Source: Escherichia phage vB_EcoM_PTE-Eco09
Length of the DNA: 64,000 nt
Sequence record: PQ306574.1
Direction: 5' to 3' (one strand)
Of this stretch, positions 33,989 to 39,516 are shown one piece after another. Under the pieces are notes generated by a model. That model saw nothing but the letters and a program-made list of their open reading frames with translations, did not search any database and was not told the DNA's origin. The position numbers and the translations under genes were made by a program. The stretch's first letter is position 1; every line of letters begins with the position of its first letter.

Positions 33989-34687
33989 ATGCATACAATG
34001 GTTAAAATGGTCTTCGGATCTCACTTATACGGCCTTGATACTGAAAACTCCGATAAAGATTATCGTGGTATCTTTGTTCCGACTGCGAAAGAAATTATCT
34101 TAGGATCGATGAAAGAACACTATGATCAAAGCACTAGCGGTCAAGGGATCAAGAACACCAAAGACGACATTGACGTTAATATGTTCAGTCTAAAACGGTT
34201 TATCAATCTGGCATGTAAAGGCGATATCGGCGCTATTGACATGGTGCACGCTCCTAGTAACATGTTGATTGAATCCTCCAGAGAATGGGAATACATCCGA
34301 ACACATCGCGATAAATTCTATCATGTTGGGATGTGTGGTTTGTCTGGTTATCTCAAAAAGCAGGTAGCAAAATCTGAAAAGTATTTCAGTAACTGGAAAG
34401 ATCTTTCTCATGCTCTGCGTGTTGGTTATCAGCTACTTGAAATCTATCAGACAGGTGATTTACAATTCCCGCTCGCGCGACGTTCTTCTATTTTAGCGTG
34501 TAAGTTAGGAGAAAGAACCTTTGATAATGTGCGGGAAGAATTGAAAGATCTCTACGAGCGTGTTAAACTCGCTCGTGAAGAGGCAAAGAAAAACGGTATG
34601 CCGGAAGAACCAGATGTTGACTTTTGGAAAGATCTATTAGAATATATTCATCTGACAGTTGTTCTGGAACACTATACCCGTGGTTAG
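33989..34687 (+). CDS. Pol-beta-superfamily nucleotidyltransferase-like protein
   Basis: N-terminal GSHLYGLDTENSDKDYRGIF matches the GS-x(9-11)-DxD nucleotidyltransferase signature; helical C-terminal half. Confidence 0.55.
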   Translation: MHTMVKMVFGSHLYGLDTENSDKDYRGIFVPTAKEIILGSMKEHYDQSTSGQGIKNTKDDIDVNMFSLKRFINLACKGDIGAIDMVHAPSNMLIESSREWEYIRTHRDKFYHVGMCGLSGYLKKQVAKSEKYFSNWKDLSHALRVGYQLLEIYQTGDLQFPLARRSSILACKLGERTFDNVREELKDLYERVKLAREEAKKNGMPEEPDVDFWKDLLEYIHLTVVLEHYTRG

Positions 34688-34708
34688 TTAATATAGGAGA
34701 TTAAGAAA

Positions 34709-34903
34709 ATGAAAGTTTATACCAATAGTAATAAAGGACAAGATATTACGCCCGGAAAGATGTATGATTTTACCCCGACACGAGACGACGAAAATCCACC
34801 GACAATCGGTTACATCAAAGATGATATAGGTTATCGTATTACGATCCTTCTTGATGGTGGATGTTCTCATCTTCGCGGTGATCGTTGGGAGTTAGTACCA
34901 TGA
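34709..34903 (+). CDS. Small paralog family member A (64 aa)
   Basis: TAGGAGA RBS; motif IGYIKDDIGYRITILLDGGCSHLRGDRWEL shared with the next two ORFs. Confidence 0.5.
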   Translation: MKVYTNSNKGQDITPGKMYDFTPTRDDENPPTIGYIKDDIGYRITILLDGGCSHLRGDRWELVP

Positions 34904-35145
34904 TGTATGTGATGACACCTTATAGTAACCGCAGGTATATTACACCAAATACACTGTATGAATATACACCACATGAAAGATTTGCGAATAGTGGTTATAT
35001 CCGTGATGATAAGGGACACCAGATTTTTATTTGTCTTAAAAATTGTGCACACTTAGACGGTCGAACATGGACACTAATCGAAGAACCAAAACAACCTGAG
35101 AATAAAGGTCTTTGGAACGCAATTAAAAAAATCTTGAAAAAGTAG
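34900..35145 (+). CDS. Small paralog family member B (81 aa)
   Basis: ATGA overlap; GYIRDDKGHQIFICLKNCAHLDGRTWTL. Confidence 0.5.
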   Translation: MMYVMTPYSNRRYITPNTLYEYTPHERFANSGYIRDDKGHQIFICLKNCAHLDGRTWTLIEEPKQPENKGLWNAIKKILKK

Positions 35146-35173
35146 TTGACACAACAAAACGGGGGTAGTAATA
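35146..35173 (+). promoter_or_regulatory. Early promoter module with stem-loop over the -10 box
   Basis: TTGACA-N16-TAATAT; inverted repeat GGGGGTA/TACCCCC (35161-35180). Confidence 0.55.
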
Positions 35174-35202
35174 TACCCCCATCGAAACAAAGGAGTATTA
35201 AA

Positions 35203-35538
35203 ATGAGTATTAAAGAAGTGTTTGTTTATACCGACTATGACGGGTGCGCCTATCTCACTGCTGGAAAACTTTACCGTTGTGAGATTATTCATGGTACGCT
35301 AGGTCGAATTATGTGCGATCCTATTACAAAATTGTGGAAAAATAATCCTAGTGAGCGAGAAACTCTTATTAACCTAGATCCAGACGGTTGTTCACATTTG
35401 GACTATAGAAAATGGCATATCGTGACACATGATGCTTATGGTATTCATCTTGCTACTAAAGAATTAACTATAGAGAAATTCAAGTTTAAAGAAATCCCGT
35501 TTGTATACTGGCTTCGCAATTTGTTTAAGAAAGGATAA
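35203..35538 (+). CDS. Small paralog family member C (111 aa)
   Basis: ATG after the promoter and AAGGAG RBS; DPDGCSHLDYRKWHIV motif. Confidence 0.5.
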   Translation: MSIKEVFVYTDYDGCAYLTAGKLYRCEIIHGTLGRIMCDPITKLWKNNPSERETLINLDPDGCSHLDYRKWHIVTHDAYGIHLATKELTIEKFKFKEIPFVYWLRNLFKKG

Positions 35539-35542
35539 TAAA

Positions 35543-35965
35543 ATGGAAACAATTAACGTACATGTTCGCCGTAGTAAGCTGCGTAGATTCTTCGAAACCG
35601 AAATGCGCAAAACCAATGCGCAGATCAAAGAAAAGTGCTTGAATGATGGTTATGGTGAGTATATTTTCATTCGCTTTAGTCCGCATATGATCGACCGTCT
35701 AACCGATCGTCATATCGATGAACATAAGACAATGGAACTATTCAATAAGATAGAAACTCGTTTGCCGGAGATCTTCGACTTCCTGAAAATGGAAGACCGA
35801 CCTAATCGATTAGAAATTACTGACGGTAACATGTGGATCGGGATGACAGTAGACCTAATTGAAGACGGTAAGCCATATCACGGTCTATGCTGCCGAATGA
35901 TTATAGAGAATCCAAAACGACTGGCGGGTAAAATGTCGGCTGTTGTTTTGAAAGTTGACCAATAA
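35543..35965 (+). CDS. Hypothetical protein (140 aa)
   Basis: ATG with AGAAAGGA RBS. Confidence 0.5.
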   Translation: METINVHVRRSKLRRFFETEMRKTNAQIKEKCLNDGYGEYIFIRFSPHMIDRLTDRHIDEHKTMELFNKIETRLPEIFDFLKMEDRPNRLEITDGNMWIGMTVDLIEDGKPYHGLCCRMIIENPKRLAGKMSAVVLKVDQ

Positions 35966-36050
35966 TGGAGATTGGTTAAAATAATGCTTGACTTTCTGGT
36001 GATATGGCTATATTATGGAATCAGAAAGTTAAGCCAAACAGGAGAAATTA

Positions 36051-36641
36051 ATGTTAAAAGTTCTAAAAGCGATAGTATTGAGTCTGTCACTAGCCGTTGG
36101 TGCTACACACGCATCGACTAGCGCACCGATCAAAAAAGCGCCGATAGACAACTTTACAGCACACCAACTAGATAATTTACATTTCGCCTATCAATACGGC
36201 GAACAATTCGAGAAAAGCGGTAAGTTGAAAAAGGACCATCCGAATATTCGCTATAACGGAAAGGGTTTAGGTCACATCCTGGCGGGTATCGCATGGCAAG
36301 AATCAAGCGCGGGTGCAAACTTAGCACCAAAGAAAAATCATCATGCTTATGGATTATTTCAAAATTACCTTAAAACGGTGAAAGCGAAAAATGCAAAGCG
36401 CGGTGTTAAAATGAGTGATCGCCAGACTATCAACTTTATCATGAATCGCGAGGTTTCTGCATTCTACGCGATGGATGAGTTAGCATACTGGCTGGATGTT
36501 CGAAACGGTAATATCCGACTCGCGCTAGCTTCTTACAATGCTGGATGGAACTATAAAGCCGGATTAGGTTATGCTGATGACGTACTAAAAAAGGCTAACC
36601 ATCTAAAGAGTAAAGGCATTCTTAAGACTAAACGCTATTGA
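36051..36641 (+). CDS. Secreted lytic transglycosylase (SLT domain) with signal peptide
   Basis: N-terminal signal peptide (MLKVLKAIVLSLSLAVGATHA); SLT motifs GIAWQESS, YGLFQ, YNAG. Confidence 0.65.
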   Translation: MLKVLKAIVLSLSLAVGATHASTSAPIKKAPIDNFTAHQLDNLHFAYQYGEQFEKSGKLKKDHPNIRYNGKGLGHILAGIAWQESSAGANLAPKKNHHAYGLFQNYLKTVKAKNAKRGVKMSDRQTINFIMNREVSAFYAMDELAYWLDVRNGNIRLALASYNAGWNYKAGLGYADDVLKKANHLKSKGILKTKRY

Positions 36642-36648
36642 GGAATAT

Positions 36649-37008
36649 ATGAAAAAGTTGACAATAGTTGCTATGATTGCTATGATGTTCTCGGCTGGTG
36701 CGCTTGCTAGTAATGAGCGCCCTTATCCAAAGTTCGAATACAAAGGATTTGAGATCAACAAAAAGATCATTAAAACCTTCTGTGATGATGATAACATGTG
36801 TAGCGATTTTATCGCACTTGAACTTGACGAGGCATACAAACAAGGTCGAGACGAAAAACGAAAAAATCGAGCGTGGGATCTGAGTATTGCCAGCTTTGCT
36901 AAAACAAAACGTAACCTGTGTGATACTGCCCCTGATAAGCAATTATGCTTTGCTTATCGCGACACACTGTTAAGCCGTTTTATGGCTGGGTTGTCTTCCC
37001 GTGACTAA
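36649..37008 (+). CDS. Secreted Cys-containing protein of unknown function
   Basis: Signal peptide (MKKLTIVAMIAMMFSAGALA); four Cys; 8 nt after the SLT gene. Confidence 0.5.
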   Translation: MKKLTIVAMIAMMFSAGALASNERPYPKFEYKGFEINKKIIKTFCDDDNMCSDFIALELDEAYKQGRDEKRKNRAWDLSIASFAKTKRNLCDTAPDKQLCFAYRDTLLSRFMAGLSSRD

Positions 37009-37023
37009 TTAGAGGTTTATAAT

Positions 37024-37479
37024 ATGATTATTGATACTGTAAAGGGCGATCTCATCGCCCTGTTTAAACAAGGAAACGGTCATTTAATTCATGGTTGTAA
37101 TTGTTTTCATACTATGGGCGCTGGTATTGCTGCGGATATCGCGAAAGAGTTCCCGCAAGCGTTAGAGATTGACAAGCAAACTTCTCGCGGTAAGGTAGAA
37201 AAGTTGGGTGGGTTTAGTGTCTGGACGCATCAAGTTAATGGTTATAACTGGTGCGTGGTGAATCTCTATACCCAATTCCGACCGGGTCCAAATGCTGAAT
37301 ATGGTGCTATCCTGAAAGGATTTGAGACTCTCAATGATGTTTTTGAAGGTGCTATACAGCCTTTCTATATCCCTAAAATCGGTTGCGGTATCGGTGGCCT
37401 TGAGTGGGAATGTGTAGAAGAAATCATTAATATTGCTACTCCAGACATTAACATTGTGGTGGTGGAATATGACAAATAA
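37024..37479 (+). CDS. Macro-domain-like protein (possible ADP-ribose binding/hydrolase)
   Basis: HGCNCFHTMGAGIAADI and IPKIGCGIGGL resemble the two glycine-rich macro-domain motifs. Confidence 0.45.
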   Translation: MIIDTVKGDLIALFKQGNGHLIHGCNCFHTMGAGIAADIAKEFPQALEIDKQTSRGKVEKLGGFSVWTHQVNGYNWCVVNLYTQFRPGPNAEYGAILKGFETLNDVFEGAIQPFYIPKIGCGIGGLEWECVEEIINIATPDINIVVVEYDK

Positions 37480-37663
37480 AAATGACCTCTATTCCGGTTA
37501 TTGGGTGAAACGTCAGTCTGTGGAAAACGTAACTTGTTTTCGTTGTTTCACCGAATACAATATAAAAACCGCTCCTGTTAGTGTTCCAAAGACAGACGGG
37601 TATTATATTAAAGAACCGCATTGCCCTAAATGTAAATGTCGATTATATTGGAGTCATCTATGA
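37469..37663 (+). CDS. Small zinc-ribbon-like protein (64 aa)
   Basis: CFRC..CPKCKC cysteine pairs; GGTGGTGG RBS. Confidence 0.4.
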   Translation: MTNKNDLYSGYWVKRQSVENVTCFRCFTEYNIKTAPVSVPKTDGYYIKEPHCPKCKCRLYWSHL

Positions 37664-37878
37664 AGAAGCCTAATACCGCTCACATGAAGGAAAACTGCCG
37701 ATGTGTTAGATGTGGTTGGCCTATTGTCTTCACTTGCTGTAACGACGATATGCAGCGTTTACCGTGGGGAATGTGGGATTGGTGGATGTATTGTAGCAAT
37801 AAAGGATGCATCCACCACGAAGGCGAAGGAGTATTTCAGGAAACGCCTGATTGGGTGGAGGTGATAGAAAATGCTTGA
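37660..37878 (+). CDS. Small Cys/Trp-rich protein (72 aa)
   Basis: CRCVRCGW..CCNDD..C..C; TTGGAG RBS. Confidence 0.4.
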   Translation: MKKPNTAHMKENCRCVRCGWPIVFTCCNDDMQRLPWGMWDWWMYCSNKGCIHHEGEGVFQETPDWVEVIENA

Positions 37879-38164
37879 GACTACCATTAACCTTGTTATG
37901 TGGACTTTCAATTTCGTTATTGTTATTATGGCGGGTATTGAGATTGTCAAGCAATATCTGTTACAATCCAGAAATAAACATGTTGTAATTGATATGGACT
38001 CTCAAGGAAATAAGCTGATCCGGTTAGAAGATGGTCGGGAATATTGGGTAGGTTATCCAAAGACACTACGCGGATTTATCTTTGCTATGGGGGTTTGCTT
38101 CTTTTTCCTTTGTATCTGGACTTATATCGGTTTAGGCCTTGTTGGATTTTTGGAGATTAATTAA
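37871..38164 (+). CDS. Small membrane protein (97 aa)
   Basis: Two hydrophobic segments; overlaps neighbours by a few nt. Confidence 0.5.
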   Translation: MLETTINLVMWTFNFVIVIMAGIEIVKQYLLQSRNKHVVIDMDSQGNKLIRLEDGREYWVGYPKTLRGFIFAMGVCFFFLCIWTYIGLGLVGFLEIN

Positions 38165-38760
38165 TGGCGCAATTATATTTCTACTATGCATCTATGAACG
38201 CTGGCAAATCAACTTCTCTGTTACAAAGTGCTTATAACTATACCGAACGTGATATGCGAGTATTAATTCTTAAGCCAGCGATTGATAATCGAGATTCAGA
38301 AAGTGAAGTTGTTTCCCGAATTGGTCTAAGTGCTCCAGCGATCACCTTCACTAAATCGGATGATCTTTTCGATTTGGTTTATCGTGAATCATTAGGTAAG
38401 CGTAGACCGGATCGCTGGCGTCCTGATGCTGTATTTGTAGATGAAGCCCAATTTATGACTAAAGAGCATGTTTTAGGCTTGTGTGCGCTTGTTGATGATG
38501 CAAATATCCCTGTACTGTGCTATGGCCTTCGCACCGACTTTCAGGGCAATCTATTTGAAGGATCTGCGGCATTAATGGCATTTGCTGATAAACTGGTCGA
38601 AATGAAGGGTATTTGTCATTGTGGCAAGAAAGCAACAATGGTCCTTCGTGTAGATAAAGAGGGTAATGTTATTCGCGATGGTGCTCAAATAGAAGTTGGT
38701 GCAGAGGATAAATATGTCTCTGTGTGCCGTAAACATTTTATTGACGGTACTACCAAATAA
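38164..38760 (+). CDS. tk: Thymidine kinase
   Basis: YASMNAGKSTSLLQ P-loop, VFVDEAQF, YGLRTDFQGNLFEGS, CHCGKKA resemble T4 Tk. Confidence 0.9.
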   Translation: MAQLYFYYASMNAGKSTSLLQSAYNYTERDMRVLILKPAIDNRDSESEVVSRIGLSAPAITFTKSDDLFDLVYRESLGKRRPDRWRPDAVFVDEAQFMTKEHVLGLCALVDDANIPVLCYGLRTDFQGNLFEGSAALMAFADKLVEMKGICHCGKKATMVLRVDKEGNVIRDGAQIEVGAEDKYVSVCRKHFIDGTTK

Positions 38761-38779
38761 GAGTTAATCATAAATAAAG

Positions 38780-38819
38780 CCCCAGATTATAAATATAACT
38801 GAATATTTTTAATCTGGGG
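38780..38819 (+). promoter_or_regulatory. Long hairpin carrying a TATAAATA late-promoter motif in its loop
   Basis: CCCCAGATT..(22-nt loop containing TATAAATA at 38788-38795)..AATCTGGGG, about 33 nt upstream of the ATG at 38829. Confidence 0.35.
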
Positions 38820-38828
38820 GAATGACTT

Positions 38829-39131
38829 ATGTCATTTATTCGTAAAACTCTAACAGCGGCAATATGCTTGACTGCGGTCGGAAGTGTCAGTGCTGATCAA
38901 TATGATCCAACTGGTGACTTTACTGATTATTTCGACGGTGCAATGATAGTATATGTAAACAAAATATCTCCTTCCATTGAAACCAGCCAGAAATTTCATG
39001 CCCATATTATGAAGATGTATGCTCGTAGTAAATGTATGGATTCTAAGCAGTGTTTTATTATGGGGGAATATGCCGCACAACAGTTTGTTATGTTGCATAA
39101 TATGGAGAATCGAGAACATGAAATTCAGTGA
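38829..39131 (+). CDS. Secreted protein of unknown function (100 aa)
   Basis: Signal peptide MSFIRKTLTAAICLTAVGSVSA; GGGGGAA RBS. Confidence 0.5.
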   Translation: MSFIRKTLTAAICLTAVGSVSADQYDPTGDFTDYFDGAMIVYVNKISPSIETSQKFHAHIMKMYARSKCMDSKQCFIMGEYAAQQFVMLHNMENREHEIQ

Positions 39132-39516
39132 TTTTCGAAAGACGTCCGAAGATGGGAAAGCTAATAAAGTTGACCGCTTTATCGGTGAATGTCTGATGAG
39201 TGTTACTTATATGCATTCTGCGCATTTTGGAGTAACTGGTCCTGGATCTTATGCAAAACATAAGGCTCTAGAAGAGTTCTATCTTGAAATGCAAGAATTG
39301 GTTGATGATTTCACTGAAACCAATATTGGGATCACTGGTCGTTATCAGCCAACGTTGGTCGTCCGCAAGGAGATGAGCGAAATTGCCTATTTGCAAGAGT
39401 TAACGCAAATGGCTAGTGAGATTTATAATGATGTTGATAGCTCGTTACAGAGCGTTTTAGACGATATCAAAGCTCTATGCTTTAAAACAATTTATAAACT
39501 CACTCGATTGGCTTAA
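39118..39516 (+). CDS. Hypothetical protein (132 aa)
   Basis: First ATG with a weak RBS in a long track ORF; start uncertain. Confidence 0.45.
   Translation: MKFSDFRKTSEDGKANKVDRFIGECLMSVTYMHSAHFGVTGPGSYAKHKALEEFYLEMQELVDDFTETNIGITGRYQPTLVVRKEMSEIAYLQELTQMASEIYNDVDSSLQSVLDDIKALCFKTIYKLTRLA

What the first reader, a model, noticed from the sequence alone, without database searches (positions are those of the whole stretch)
37024..37479. Macro-domain-like protein in the early region (candidate ADP-ribose processing or anti-defense factor)
The 151-aa protein has two glycine-rich motifs (HGCNCFHTMGAGIAADI and IPKIGCGIGGL) spaced as in macro domains, which bind or hydrolyse ADP-ribose derivatives. 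T4-type phages encode ADP-ribosyltransferases, and host defenses use ADP-ribosylation or NAD-derived signals, so a phage macro domain could reverse host modification or degrade a defense signal. The assignment is motif-based and tentative.
Basis: inference. Interest (0 to 1): 0.55.

Follow-up and report, generated by a model that had tools for sequence, protein, structure and literature searches.

The report
Phage macrodomain Tk.4/AdfM, anti-DarT2 factor

Summary
The 151-aa ORF at 37024-37479 (+) is real and has both glycine-rich motifs as described. It is a macrodomain: Pfam Macro scores above its gathering cut-off, PHROG 335 matches at E=1e-62, and the AlphaFold2 model (pLDDT 96) superposes on TARG1 and DarG macrodomains (TM 0.77-0.84). 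The window is a Krischvirus (RB49-like). The gene is the ortholog of T4 tk.4: 44% identity over the full length, and the same regB-vs.1-vs-tk.4-...-tk-rI gene order. A November 2025 preprint found tk.4 to be the only T4 gene needed to resist DarTG2, and renamed it adfM.

One detail is not stated in the papers I read. The catalytic lysine of DarG (K80), TARG1 (K84) and PhiKZ AdfM is a glutamine here (Q84), in 251 of 254 homologs. That matches Streptomyces SCO6735, which uses Gln85 to cleave ADP-ribosyl-thymidine. The protein has no DarT-binding domain and no adjacent darT, so it is an orphan antitoxin-like enzyme.

No biochemical test of any Tk.4-type protein was found, and no Krischvirus has been tested against DarTG2. 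Verdict: already known; low-to-moderate interest.

The parts
37024..37479 (+). tk.4 / adfM ortholog: 151-aa stand-alone macrodomain protein (stop codon included)
   Evidence: ORF; Pfam Macro, PHROG 335, PADLOC DarG and NCBIfam DarG partial matches; 44% identity to T4 Tk.4, E=2e-45; AF2 pLDDT 96; Foldseek matches to TARG1 and DarG
37011..37015 (+). Shine-Dalgarno-like AGAGG, 8 nt upstream of the ATG
   Evidence: Read directly from the sequence
37090..37140 (+). Motif 1 (residues 23-39, HGCNCFHTMGAGIAADI): His23, Gly24, Asn26 and the Gly-rich loop 1. It aligns with SCO6735 H24-V25-C26-N27...G33-K34-G35 and with Poa1p H23...S30.
   Evidence: Alignments. Among 254 homologs N26 is kept in 253, G24 in 251, G34 in 252 and H23 in 238.
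37273..37275 (+). Codon CAA = Gln84, at the position of the catalytic Lys of DarG (K80), TARG1 (K84) and PhiKZ gp104, and of Gln85 in SCO6735
   Evidence: HMMER and MAFFT alignments. Q in 251 of 254 homologs. The role of SCO6735 Gln85 is from PMC9411070.
37369..37401 (+). Motif 2 (residues 116-126, IPKIGCGIGGL): phosphate-binding loop. G120 and G122 correspond to SCO6735 G126 and G128.
   Evidence: G120 and G122 in 252 of 254. The G128E effect in SCO6735 is from PMC9411070.
37469..37663 (+). Downstream 64-aa Cys-rich ORF. Its ATG overlaps the end of tk.4 by 11 nt (ATGACAAATAA), suggesting translational coupling. Context only, not part of the macrodomain.
   Evidence: Sequence; annotated as a CDS in phage W115; no similarity to T4 tk.1-tk.3
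36649..37008 (+). Upstream neighbour vs (valyl-tRNA synthetase modifier ortholog), the synteny anchor
   Evidence: Annotation of W115; blastp to T4 Vs E=5e-7
38164..38760 (+). Downstream synteny anchor tk (thymidine kinase)
   Evidence: W115 annotation; 52.5% identity to T4 Tk

Best explanation
The ORF encodes the Krischvirus ortholog of T4 Tk.4 (AdfM). It is a stand-alone macrodomain of the ALC1/TARG1-like class that acts as an orphan, antitoxin-like ADP-ribosylglycohydrolase. The proposed mechanism is as follows. It is made from the pre-replicative regB-vs-tk gene block. It binds the ADP-ribose that the host toxin DarT2 attaches to thymidine in single-stranded phage DNA (TNTC motifs) and hydrolyses the ribose-thymine bond. 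This restores a template that can be replicated and packaged, so DarTG2 defence is neutralised. The chemistry is probably the lysine-independent, SCO6735-type mechanism, not the DarG/TARG1 lysine mechanism. In that mechanism Gln84, held in place by Asn26, positions the distal ribose, the two Gly-rich loops hold the diphosphate, and a water molecule acts as the proton donor. Shown here: the fold, the orthology, the synteny and the conservation of the active-site residues. Taken from the literature: the T4 genetics and the SCO6735 and PhiKZ biochemistry. Inferred: that this Krischvirus protein has the same activity and role.
For: Macro fold: Pfam above its cut-off; AF2 pLDDT 96, pTM 0.90; Foldseek top hits TARG1 (E=8e-11, TM 0.77-0.84), Taq and Mtb DarG macrodomains, Poa1p, BT1257 and SCO6735. 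Orthology to T4 Tk.4: 44% identity over 153 columns, E=2e-45; same gene order regB-vs.1-vs-tk.4-...-tk-rI-rI.-1; RB49, JSE and Phi1 records name the gene tk.4. Function of the ortholog: tk.4 was the only T4 HIDEN-SEQ hit on DarTG2, and a clean knockout was sensitised. Similarity to DarG: PADLOC DarG E=7.7e-16 and NCBIfam antitoxin_DarG E=1.4e-14, both over the macrodomain part only. Active site: Q84, N26, G120 and G122 are kept in at least 251 of 254 homologs. They align with SCO6735 Q85, N27, G126 and G128, whose mutation abolishes or strongly reduces ADPr-thymidine hydrolysis; SCO6735 also rescues cells from DarT (PMC9411070). A different phage macrodomain, PhiKZ gp104, removes DarT2-made ADP-ribose from DNA in vitro (PMC13309987), so this strategy is used by phages. 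Purifying selection.
Against: No Tk.4-type protein has been assayed biochemically in any paper found. The T4 evidence is genetic and comes from a preprint, with no catalytic mutant. No Krischvirus has been tested on DarTG2. Identity to T4 Tk.4 is only 44%. Several SCO6735 features that its authors linked to DNA handling are absent here: K34 is A33, V25 is G24, and the 'mobile loop' carrying K89 is several residues shorter. The family is about as similar to the ADP-ribose-1''-phosphate phosphatase Poa1p as to DarG (profile E=2.8e-12 against 4.6e-13), so sequence alone does not fix the substrate.
Confidence: 0.7

Rival explanations
1. The protein neutralises DarT2 mainly by binding it or its product (interaction-inhibition or sequestration) and not by hydrolysis. 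It would then be a stoichiometric inhibitor built on a macro scaffold.
For: Catalytically dead SCO6735 Q85A still inhibits DarT in vitro, more strongly than DarG K80A or TARG1 K84A (PMC9411070). The DarG/TARG1 catalytic lysine is absent here. ICP1 AdfB counters DarT by direct binding (PMC11481870).
Against: The residues needed for SCO6735 catalysis (Q85, N27, G128 equivalents) are almost invariant across 254 homologs, which fits an enzyme. The protein lacks the DarG C-terminal DarT-binding domain. PhiKZ AdfM acts enzymatically.
Confidence: 0.1
2. Its main substrate is not ADPr-thymidine DNA but another ADP-ribose conjugate or metabolite. Candidates are ADP-ribose-1''-phosphate (the 'phosphatase' of RefSeq and PHROGs), O-acetyl-ADP-ribose, ADP-ribosylated proteins (for example reversal or tuning of phage Alt/ModA/ModB marks), ADPr-uracil in RNA, or an NAD-derived defence signal (Thoeris-type).
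For: PHROG 335 and RefSeq call it 'phosphatase'. The N-terminal HxCNC motif is shared with yeast Poa1p (H23 and N26 kept; S30 is T30 here), and Poa1p is a fold hit. SCO6735 and TARG1 also act on proteins and on U-ADPr RNA. [quoted passage not shown]
Against: In T4, tk.4 showed reduced read counts specifically on the DarTG2 host and was the only significant hit there. The Poa1p fold match is poorer (rmsd 4.6-4.9 A, TM 0.62-0.71) than the TARG1 and DarG matches. The 'phosphatase' label comes from T4's generic 'A1pp phosphatase motif' note, not from an assay. No Thoeris or other NAD-signal evidence was found.
Confidence: 0.15
3. The ORF is a chance open frame or a decayed, non-functional remnant.
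For: None found.
Against: Full-length conservation in about 2,740 phage records and 5,354 cluster representatives. Invariant active-site residues. pN much lower than pS. A Shine-Dalgarno sequence and coupled downstream ORFs. A confident fold.
Confidence: 0.01

Closest known systems
T4 Tk.4 = AdfM (anti-DarT factor Macrodomain; NP_049723; bioRxiv 10.1101/2025.11.20.689424)
   Same: Full-length homolog (44% identity, E=2e-45). Same position between vs and tk. Same HGCNCFHTMG, NLYTQF and IG(C/A)GIG motifs, including Gln84. Same size, with no extra domain.
   Different: Only 44% identical. The Krischvirus protein is closer (66-68%) to the Vequintavirus macro protein. The three small genes downstream are unrelated to T4 tk.1-tk.3. 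The anti-DarTG2 role has been shown only for T4.
Streptomyces coelicolor SCO6735 (PDB 5E3B) and Bacteroides BT1257 (2FG1/2AFC): Gln-type ALC1/TARG1-like macrodomains
   Same: Best profile-to-PDB sequence hits (E=4e-16 to 4e-15). Gln at the catalytic-lysine position, plus the His, Asn and Gly-x-Gly equivalents. Stand-alone proteins not encoded next to darT. SCO6735 cleaves ADPr-thymidine and protects against DarT.
   Different: About 24-26% identity. This protein lacks SCO6735 K34 (A33 here), V25 (G24 here) and the longer mobile loop with K89. It has family-specific invariant D50, N80-x-Y82-T83. SCO6735 is a cellular, DNA-damage-induced protein, not a phage one.
DarG antitoxin macrodomain (M. 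tuberculosis 5M3I, T. aquaticus 5M31/5M3E; NCBIfam NF048014; PADLOC DarG)
   Same: Best single-sequence PDB hit (5M3I, E=2e-8). DarG HMMs match at E about 1e-14 to 1e-15. Fold TM 0.74-0.79. Same proposed substrate (ADPr-thymidine made by DarT2).
   Different: No C-terminal DarT-binding domain: the match covers profile positions 2-141 of 338, at 54 bits against a 250-bit cut-off. Catalytic K80 is replaced by Gln. No adjacent darT.
PhiKZ gp104, also named AdfM (anti-darT factor macro; PMC13309987)
   Same: A phage-encoded stand-alone macrodomain that counters DarTG2. ADP-ribose removal from DarT2-modified DNA was shown in vitro. Conserved Asn (N23 in gp104, N26 here).
   Different: Only 26% identity (E=4e-7; hhalign probability 97%). 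It is Lys-type ('FPTKD') like DarG. It is imported into the phage nucleus. It belongs to a different subfamily despite the shared name.
Human TARG1/OARD1 (PDB 4J5R/4J5S)
   Same: Top Foldseek hit (E=8e-11, TM 0.77-0.84, 28-29% identity). Also cleaves ADPr-thymidine.
   Different: Both residues of the TARG1 catalytic dyad, K84 and D125, are absent here (Q84 and G124).
Yeast Poa1p, ADP-ribose-1''-phosphate phosphatase (PDB 6LFQ-6LFU)
   Same: Shares the N-terminal VKGD...(I/L)IH(G/S)CNC...G(A/G)GIA block. Profile E=2.8e-12. This similarity is the likely source of the 'A1pp phosphatase' label.
   Different: Weaker structural fit (rmsd 4.6-4.9 A). Poa1p is about 30 residues longer. It reads 'LFTSS' where this family reads 'LYTQF'.

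Membership tests
Macro domain superfamily (Pfam PF01661) | Sequence match to the family model above the curated gathering score | tested here: met
   30.3 bits against a cut-off of 22, E=4.5e-7, model positions 1-118 of 118
Macro domain superfamily (Pfam PF01661) | Macro fold (mixed beta-sheet between helices) superposable on solved macrodomains | tested here: met
   AF2 pLDDT 96, pTM 0.90. 195 PDB chains match at E<=0.001; the best 50 are macrodomains or macro-scaffold designs, and the best TM is 0.77-0.84.
Macro domain superfamily (Pfam PF01661) | Conserved Asn plus two Gly-rich ADP-ribose/phosphate-binding loops | tested here: met
   Among 254 homologs N26 is kept in 253, G34 in 252, and G120 and G122 in 252 each
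Macro domain superfamily (Pfam PF01661) | Binds ADP-ribose | not testable with these tools
   Needs ITC, a thermal-shift assay or a co-crystal
T4 Tk.4 / AdfM orthologous group | Full-length sequence homology to T4 Tk.4 | tested here: met
   44% identity, 65% positives, E=2e-45 over 153 columns
T4 Tk.4 / AdfM orthologous group | Conserved genomic position between vs and tk in the regB...rI block | tested here: met
   RB49, JSE and Phi1 records label the gene tk.4.
T4 Tk.4 / AdfM orthologous group | Required for phage growth on a DarTG2-expressing host | not testable with these tools
   Shown for T4 only. No Krischvirus data found.
SCO6735-type (Gln) thymidine-ADPr hydrolases of the ALC1/TARG1-like class | Gln at the position of the DarG/TARG1 catalytic Lys, supported by the conserved Asn and the loop-2 Gly | tested here: met
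   Q84, N26 and G122 align with Q85, N27 and G128. Q is kept in 251 of 254 homologs.
SCO6735-type (Gln) thymidine-ADPr hydrolases of the ALC1/TARG1-like class | SCO6735-specific Val25/Ile, DNA-binding Lys34 and Lys89, and the extended mobile loop | tested here: not met
   G24 (invariant), A33, and a loop several residues shorter. These features are as described in PMC9411070.
SCO6735-type (Gln) thymidine-ADPr hydrolases of the ALC1/TARG1-like class | Hydrolysis of ADP-ribosyl-thymidine in ssDNA | not testable with these tools
   Needs an enzyme assay on a DarT2-modified oligonucleotide
DarG type II/IV antitoxin (NCBIfam NF048014 equivalog) | Whole-protein score at or above the curated cut-off | tested here: not met
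   54.1 bits against 250
DarG type II/IV antitoxin (NCBIfam NF048014 equivalog) | C-terminal DarT-interacting domain | tested here: not met
   The protein is 151 aa. The match covers profile positions 2-141 of 338 and 3-141 of 329 only.
DarG type II/IV antitoxin (NCBIfam NF048014 equivalog) | Catalytic Lys80 | tested here: not met
   Gln84 at the aligned position
DarG type II/IV antitoxin (NCBIfam NF048014 equivalog) | Encoded next to a darT toxin gene | tested here: not met
   The neighbours are vs, small ORFs and tk. A chromosomal bacterial homolog also lacks darT nearby.
TARG1/OARD1 | Lys84-Asp125 catalytic dyad | tested here: not met
   Q84 and G124 at the aligned positions
PhiKZ gp104-type AdfM | Close homology and the DarG-like 'PTK' lysine | tested here: not met
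   26% identity. gp104 reads FPTKD where this protein reads LYTQF.
ADP-ribose-1''-phosphate phosphatase (Poa1p-like) | Overall similarity to Poa1p and retention of the residues at Poa1p H23 and S30 | tested here: inconclusive
   H23 is kept and S30 is T30 here. Profile E=2.8e-12, but the structural fit is poorer. Phosphatase activity cannot be tested here.

The most novel reading that the evidence does not exclude
The Tk.4/AdfM family may be a mechanistically distinct, lysine-independent branch of phage DNA de-ADP-ribosylases. It is Gln-type and has its own invariant residues (H23, G24, D50, N80, Y82, T83) with no counterpart in DarG or TARG1. Like SCO6735 and TARG1, it might act on more than ADPr-thymidine DNA, for example on ADPr-uracil in RNA or on ADP-ribosylated proteins. 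If so, one small orphan macrodomain carried by thousands of myoviruses would blunt several ADP-ribosyltransferase-based defences, or tune the phage's own Alt/Mod marks, and would not simply be a DarG copy.
Probability: 0.2. Interest if true: 0.5.

Novelty: already known. Interest (0 to 1): 0.25.

Why it matters
It confirms that Krischvirus (RB49-group) phages carry the same anti-DarTG2 macrodomain that was recently identified genetically in T4. This is relevant for predicting the host range of therapeutic T4-like phages on DarTG2-bearing E. coli. One modest point goes beyond the papers I read. T4-type AdfM is not a simple DarG mimic: the catalytic lysine is a glutamine, as in SCO6735. Catalytic-dead controls should therefore target Q84 and N26, not a lysine. 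The widespread database label 'phosphatase' is also probably misleading.

Tried and rejected
(1) Looked for biochemical tests of any T4-type Tk.4 protein in recent hydrolase-specificity papers (PMC11833690, PMC12879935, PMC13036486) and by full-text search. None was found.

(2) Looked for Krischvirus/RB49 tests on DarTG. None was found. In the paper that mentions them, Bas46 and Bas47 are RB69 relatives.

(3) Asked whether ICP1 AdfB is the same kind of protein. It is not: it counters DarT by binding it directly.

(4) Checked whether a chromosomal bacterial homolog (Pelagimonas, P0102) sits next to darT. It does not, so there is no direct clue to a toxin-antitoxin origin.

(5) Promoter and terminator scan of 34000-39500: 23 promoter-like sites against 17.3 +/- 4.7 in shuffles. 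That is not significant, so I make no claim about transcription.

(6) Considered a DarG-type lysine mechanism. Rejected, because Q84 occupies that position in 251 of 254 homologs.

(7) Considered membership in the PhiKZ AdfM subfamily. Rejected: 26% identity, and gp104 is Lys-type.

(8) The predicted model's coordinates could not be read, so the spatial position of the invariant D50 and Y82 relative to the ADP-ribose pocket was not examined.

(9) The paper behind the Poa1p structures is not in the library, so I make no claim about what the H23A and S30A mutants do.

Full report
OBSERVATION. An AGAGG Shine-Dalgarno-like sequence lies at 37011-37015, 8 nt upstream. The stop codon of the preceding gene is at 37006-37008. 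Both quoted motifs are present: HGCNCFHTMGAGIAADI is residues 23-39 and IPKIGCGIGGL is residues 116-126. The end of the ORF overlaps the ATG of the next ORF (ATGACAAATAA, 37469), and the following ORFs also overlap start-to-stop, so this is a tightly packed, co-oriented gene block.

IS IT A MACRO DOMAIN? Yes.
- Pfam Macro (PF01661) matches over the whole model at 30.3 bits (gathering score 22, E=4.5e-7).
- PHROG 335 matches at E=1e-62.
- Single-sequence search of the PDB finds only macrodomains with significant scores: M. tuberculosis DarG macrodomain 5M3I (E=2e-8), TARG1/OARD1, SCO6735, BT1257 and Poa1p (entry identities).
- A 92-sequence family profile raises these to E=4e-16 (BT1257), 4e-15 (SCO6735), 1e-14 (TARG1), 5e-13 (Mtb DarG) and 3e-12 (Poa1p).
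- The AlphaFold2 model built from that alignment is very confident (pLDDT 96, pTM 0.90).
- Foldseek against the PDB ranks TARG1 first (E=8e-11, TM 0.77-0.84, rmsd 2.5-2.7 A), followed by Poa1p, the T. aquaticus and M. tuberculosis DarG macrodomains, BT1257 and SCO6735.

WHAT GENOME, WHAT GENE? The region is 98-99% identical at the DNA level to Krischvirus phages (W115, RB49 and relatives). In W115 the gene is annotated 'macro domain protein'. In RB49, JSE and Phi1 it is named tk.4, and RefSeq calls it 'phosphatase'. T4's own tk.4 (NP_049723, 'contains A1pp phosphatase motif') lies between vs and tk.3, within the order regB, vs.1, vs, tk.4, tk.3-tk.1, tk, rI.1, rI, rI.-1. The window has the same order of regB, vs.1, vs, this ORF, tk, rI and rI.-1, and each of those is a blastp match to its T4 counterpart. 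The protein is 44% identical to T4 Tk.4 over the full length (E=2e-45). I therefore treat it as the tk.4 ortholog. Homologs occur in about 2,740 of 50,697 phage records. An exhaustive HMMER scan finds 5,354 50%-identity cluster representatives at E<=1e-3 and 1,655 at E<=1e-10. Selection is purifying: pN 0.21 against pS 0.81 versus the Vequintavirus copy, and dN 0.51 against dS about 1.6 versus T4.

WHAT IS KNOWN ABOUT THE ORTHOLOG? A bioRxiv preprint of November 2025 (10.1101/2025.11.20.689424) screened a T4 transposon library on a DarTG2-expressing host. [quoted passage not shown] A clean tk.4 knockout was sensitised to DarTG2. The authors noted structural similarity to the M. tuberculosis DarG macrodomain, renamed the gene adfM, and proposed that it removes ADP-ribose from DNA. 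This fits earlier work showing that T4 lacking both adfA and adfN stays resistant to DarTG2, which implied a further factor (PMC11825919). The preprint reports no biochemistry and no catalytic mutant. I found no other paper that assays a Tk.4-type protein and no test of a Krischvirus on DarTG2. Separately, a 2026 Cell Reports paper gave the same name, AdfM, to PhiKZ gp104. That protein does remove DarT2-made ADP-ribose from an oligonucleotide in vitro and rescues cells from DarT2 toxicity, and mutating a conserved Asn lowers its activity (PMC13309987).

MECHANISM: WHAT THE SEQUENCE ADDS. The DarG HMMs of PADLOC and NCBIfam both match, at E=7.7e-16 and 1.4e-14. They match only over their first ~141 positions of 329 and 338, and the NCBIfam score (54 bits) is far below the 250-bit equivalog cut-off. 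The protein is therefore a bare macrodomain without DarG's DarT-binding C-terminal domain. No darT gene is nearby. This is the 'orphan antitoxin' pattern already described for the NADAR protein AdfN.

The catalytic lysine is missing. In HMMER and MAFFT alignments the residue at the position of DarG K80, TARG1 K84 and the Lys in PhiKZ gp104's 'FPTKD' is Gln84 (codon CAA, 37273-37275). T4 Tk.4 has the same 'NLYTQF'. TARG1's partner Asp125 aligns with Gly124. Across 254 homologs, Gln is present in 251, N26 in 253, G120 and G122 in 252 each, H23 in 238 and G24 in 251. D50, N80 and Y82 are each present in 252.

The same Lys-to-Gln difference defines SCO6735 and BT1257 ('NMIGQHG'). For SCO6735 it has been shown that the enzyme cleaves ADP-ribosyl-thymidine on DNA and rescues cells from DarT. 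Q85A/E abolishes its activity, N27S almost abolishes it, and G128E substantially reduces it. Its authors proposed a water-mediated, lysine-independent mechanism in which Gln85, held by Asn27, positions the distal ribose (PMC9411070). The equivalents here (Q84, N26, G122) are essentially invariant. The most economical reading is therefore that Tk.4-type AdfM proteins are SCO6735-like in chemistry while doing DarG's job.

The differences from SCO6735 are real. V25 is an invariant Gly here, the DNA-binding K34 is Ala, and the lysine-bearing 'mobile loop' is shorter. The family also has its own invariant D50 and Y82, whose role I could not examine because the model coordinates are not readable. 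PhiKZ gp104 is only 26% identical (E=4e-7; hhalign probability 97%) and is Lys-type. The two 'AdfM' proteins are thus different subfamilies of one macrodomain class.

RIVALS.
(a) Inhibition of DarT2 by binding, not hydrolysis. Inactive SCO6735 Q85A still inhibits DarT in vitro, so this is possible as a contribution. The near-invariance of the catalytic-site residues argues for an enzyme.
(b) Another substrate. The database label 'phosphatase' goes back to the generic A1pp motif. The family does share the 'IH(G/S)CNC...G(A/G)GIA' block with yeast Poa1p, with H23 and N26 kept and S30 as T30. However, the structural fit to Poa1p is worse than to TARG1 and DarG, and the only phenotype reported in T4 is on DarTG2. 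SCO6735 and TARG1 also act on U-ADPr RNA and on proteins, so a broader range is not excluded. A 2022 survey had argued that phage macro domains mostly target small ADPr derivatives. The T4 and PhiKZ results now point to DNA for at least these two groups.
(c) A chance ORF. This is excluded by conservation.

COMPARISON AND NOVELTY. The protein works like DarG's macrodomain but fails four defining DarG features: full-length score, C-terminal domain, K80 and an adjacent darT. It is a member of the Tk.4/AdfM orthologous group by sequence and synteny, and it has SCO6735-type active-site residues. The fold assignment is already in GenBank for near-identical phages, and the function of the T4 ortholog is already reported. 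I therefore rate the finding 'already known'. The one point not stated in the papers I read is the Gln-type active site of T4-type AdfM, with the practical consequence that catalytic-dead controls should be Q84A or N26A.

VERDICT. Observation confirmed and interpretation supported. Confidence is about 0.97 that it is a macrodomain, about 0.9 that it is the tk.4/adfM ortholog, and about 0.7 that it protects this phage from DarT2 by removing ADP-ribose from thymidine in DNA. Interest 0.25.

Noticed in passing
window 37469-38164 (+): ORFs 37469-37663, 37660-37878, 37871-38164: The three small overlapping ORFs between tk.4 and tk have no blastp similarity to T4 tk.1, tk.2 or tk.3, although all flanking genes are orthologous. 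Two are Cys-rich (CxxC...CxxC, zinc-ribbon-like) and the third has two hydrophobic, membrane-like segments. This looks like a variable cassette inside a conserved backbone, translationally coupled to the macrodomain gene.
   Followed up: partly
window 36649-37008 (+) (vs) and L002 5387-5734 (-) (T4 vs): The 'valyl-tRNA synthetase modifier' Vs starts with a Sec-signal-peptide-like segment both here (MKKLTIVAMIAMMFSAGALA/SNE) and in T4 (MTKILVLCIGLISFSASASA/DTS). That is odd for a protein said to modify a cytoplasmic enzyme. The HIDEN-SEQ preprint reports vs as the gene most strongly depleted in minimal medium.
   Followed up: partly
window 37024-37479 versus L006 3001-3459 (phage Murica) and P0006 (Bas59): The Krischvirus macrodomain is 66-68% identical to the one in Vequintavirus (rV5-like) phages but only 44-49% identical to Tequatrovirus Tk.4. 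This suggests gene exchange between unrelated myovirus groups and not purely vertical descent within T4-like phages.
   Followed up: partly
window 36658-36686 (+): The best sigma-70-like match in the region (TTGACA, 17 nt, TG-TATGAT; 11 of 12) lies just inside the 5' end of vs, about 340 nt upstream of tk.4. The overall number of promoter-like sites is not above the shuffled expectation, so it may be chance.
   Followed up: no
window 37024-37479, residues D50, N80, Y82, T83, H23, G24: These residues are invariant or nearly invariant in 254 homologs. D50 and Y82 have no counterpart in DarG, TARG1 or SCO6735. Their place in the active site is unknown.
   Followed up: partly
Literature and databases (T4 NP_049723; PhiKZ gp104): Two naming problems. 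First, 'AdfM' has been given independently to T4 Tk.4 (Gln-type) and to PhiKZ gp104 (Lys-type, 26% identical). Second, RefSeq and PHROG 335 propagate 'phosphatase' for this family, based only on the generic A1pp motif.
   Followed up: yes
L004 6001-6459 (Pelagimonas phthalicica chromosome): A bacterial chromosomal member of the same Gln-type family (about 44% identical) stands alone between a peptidase M23 gene and a tryptophan halogenase gene, with no darT nearby. It is a possible cellular 'orphan' protector, like SCO6735.
   Followed up: partly
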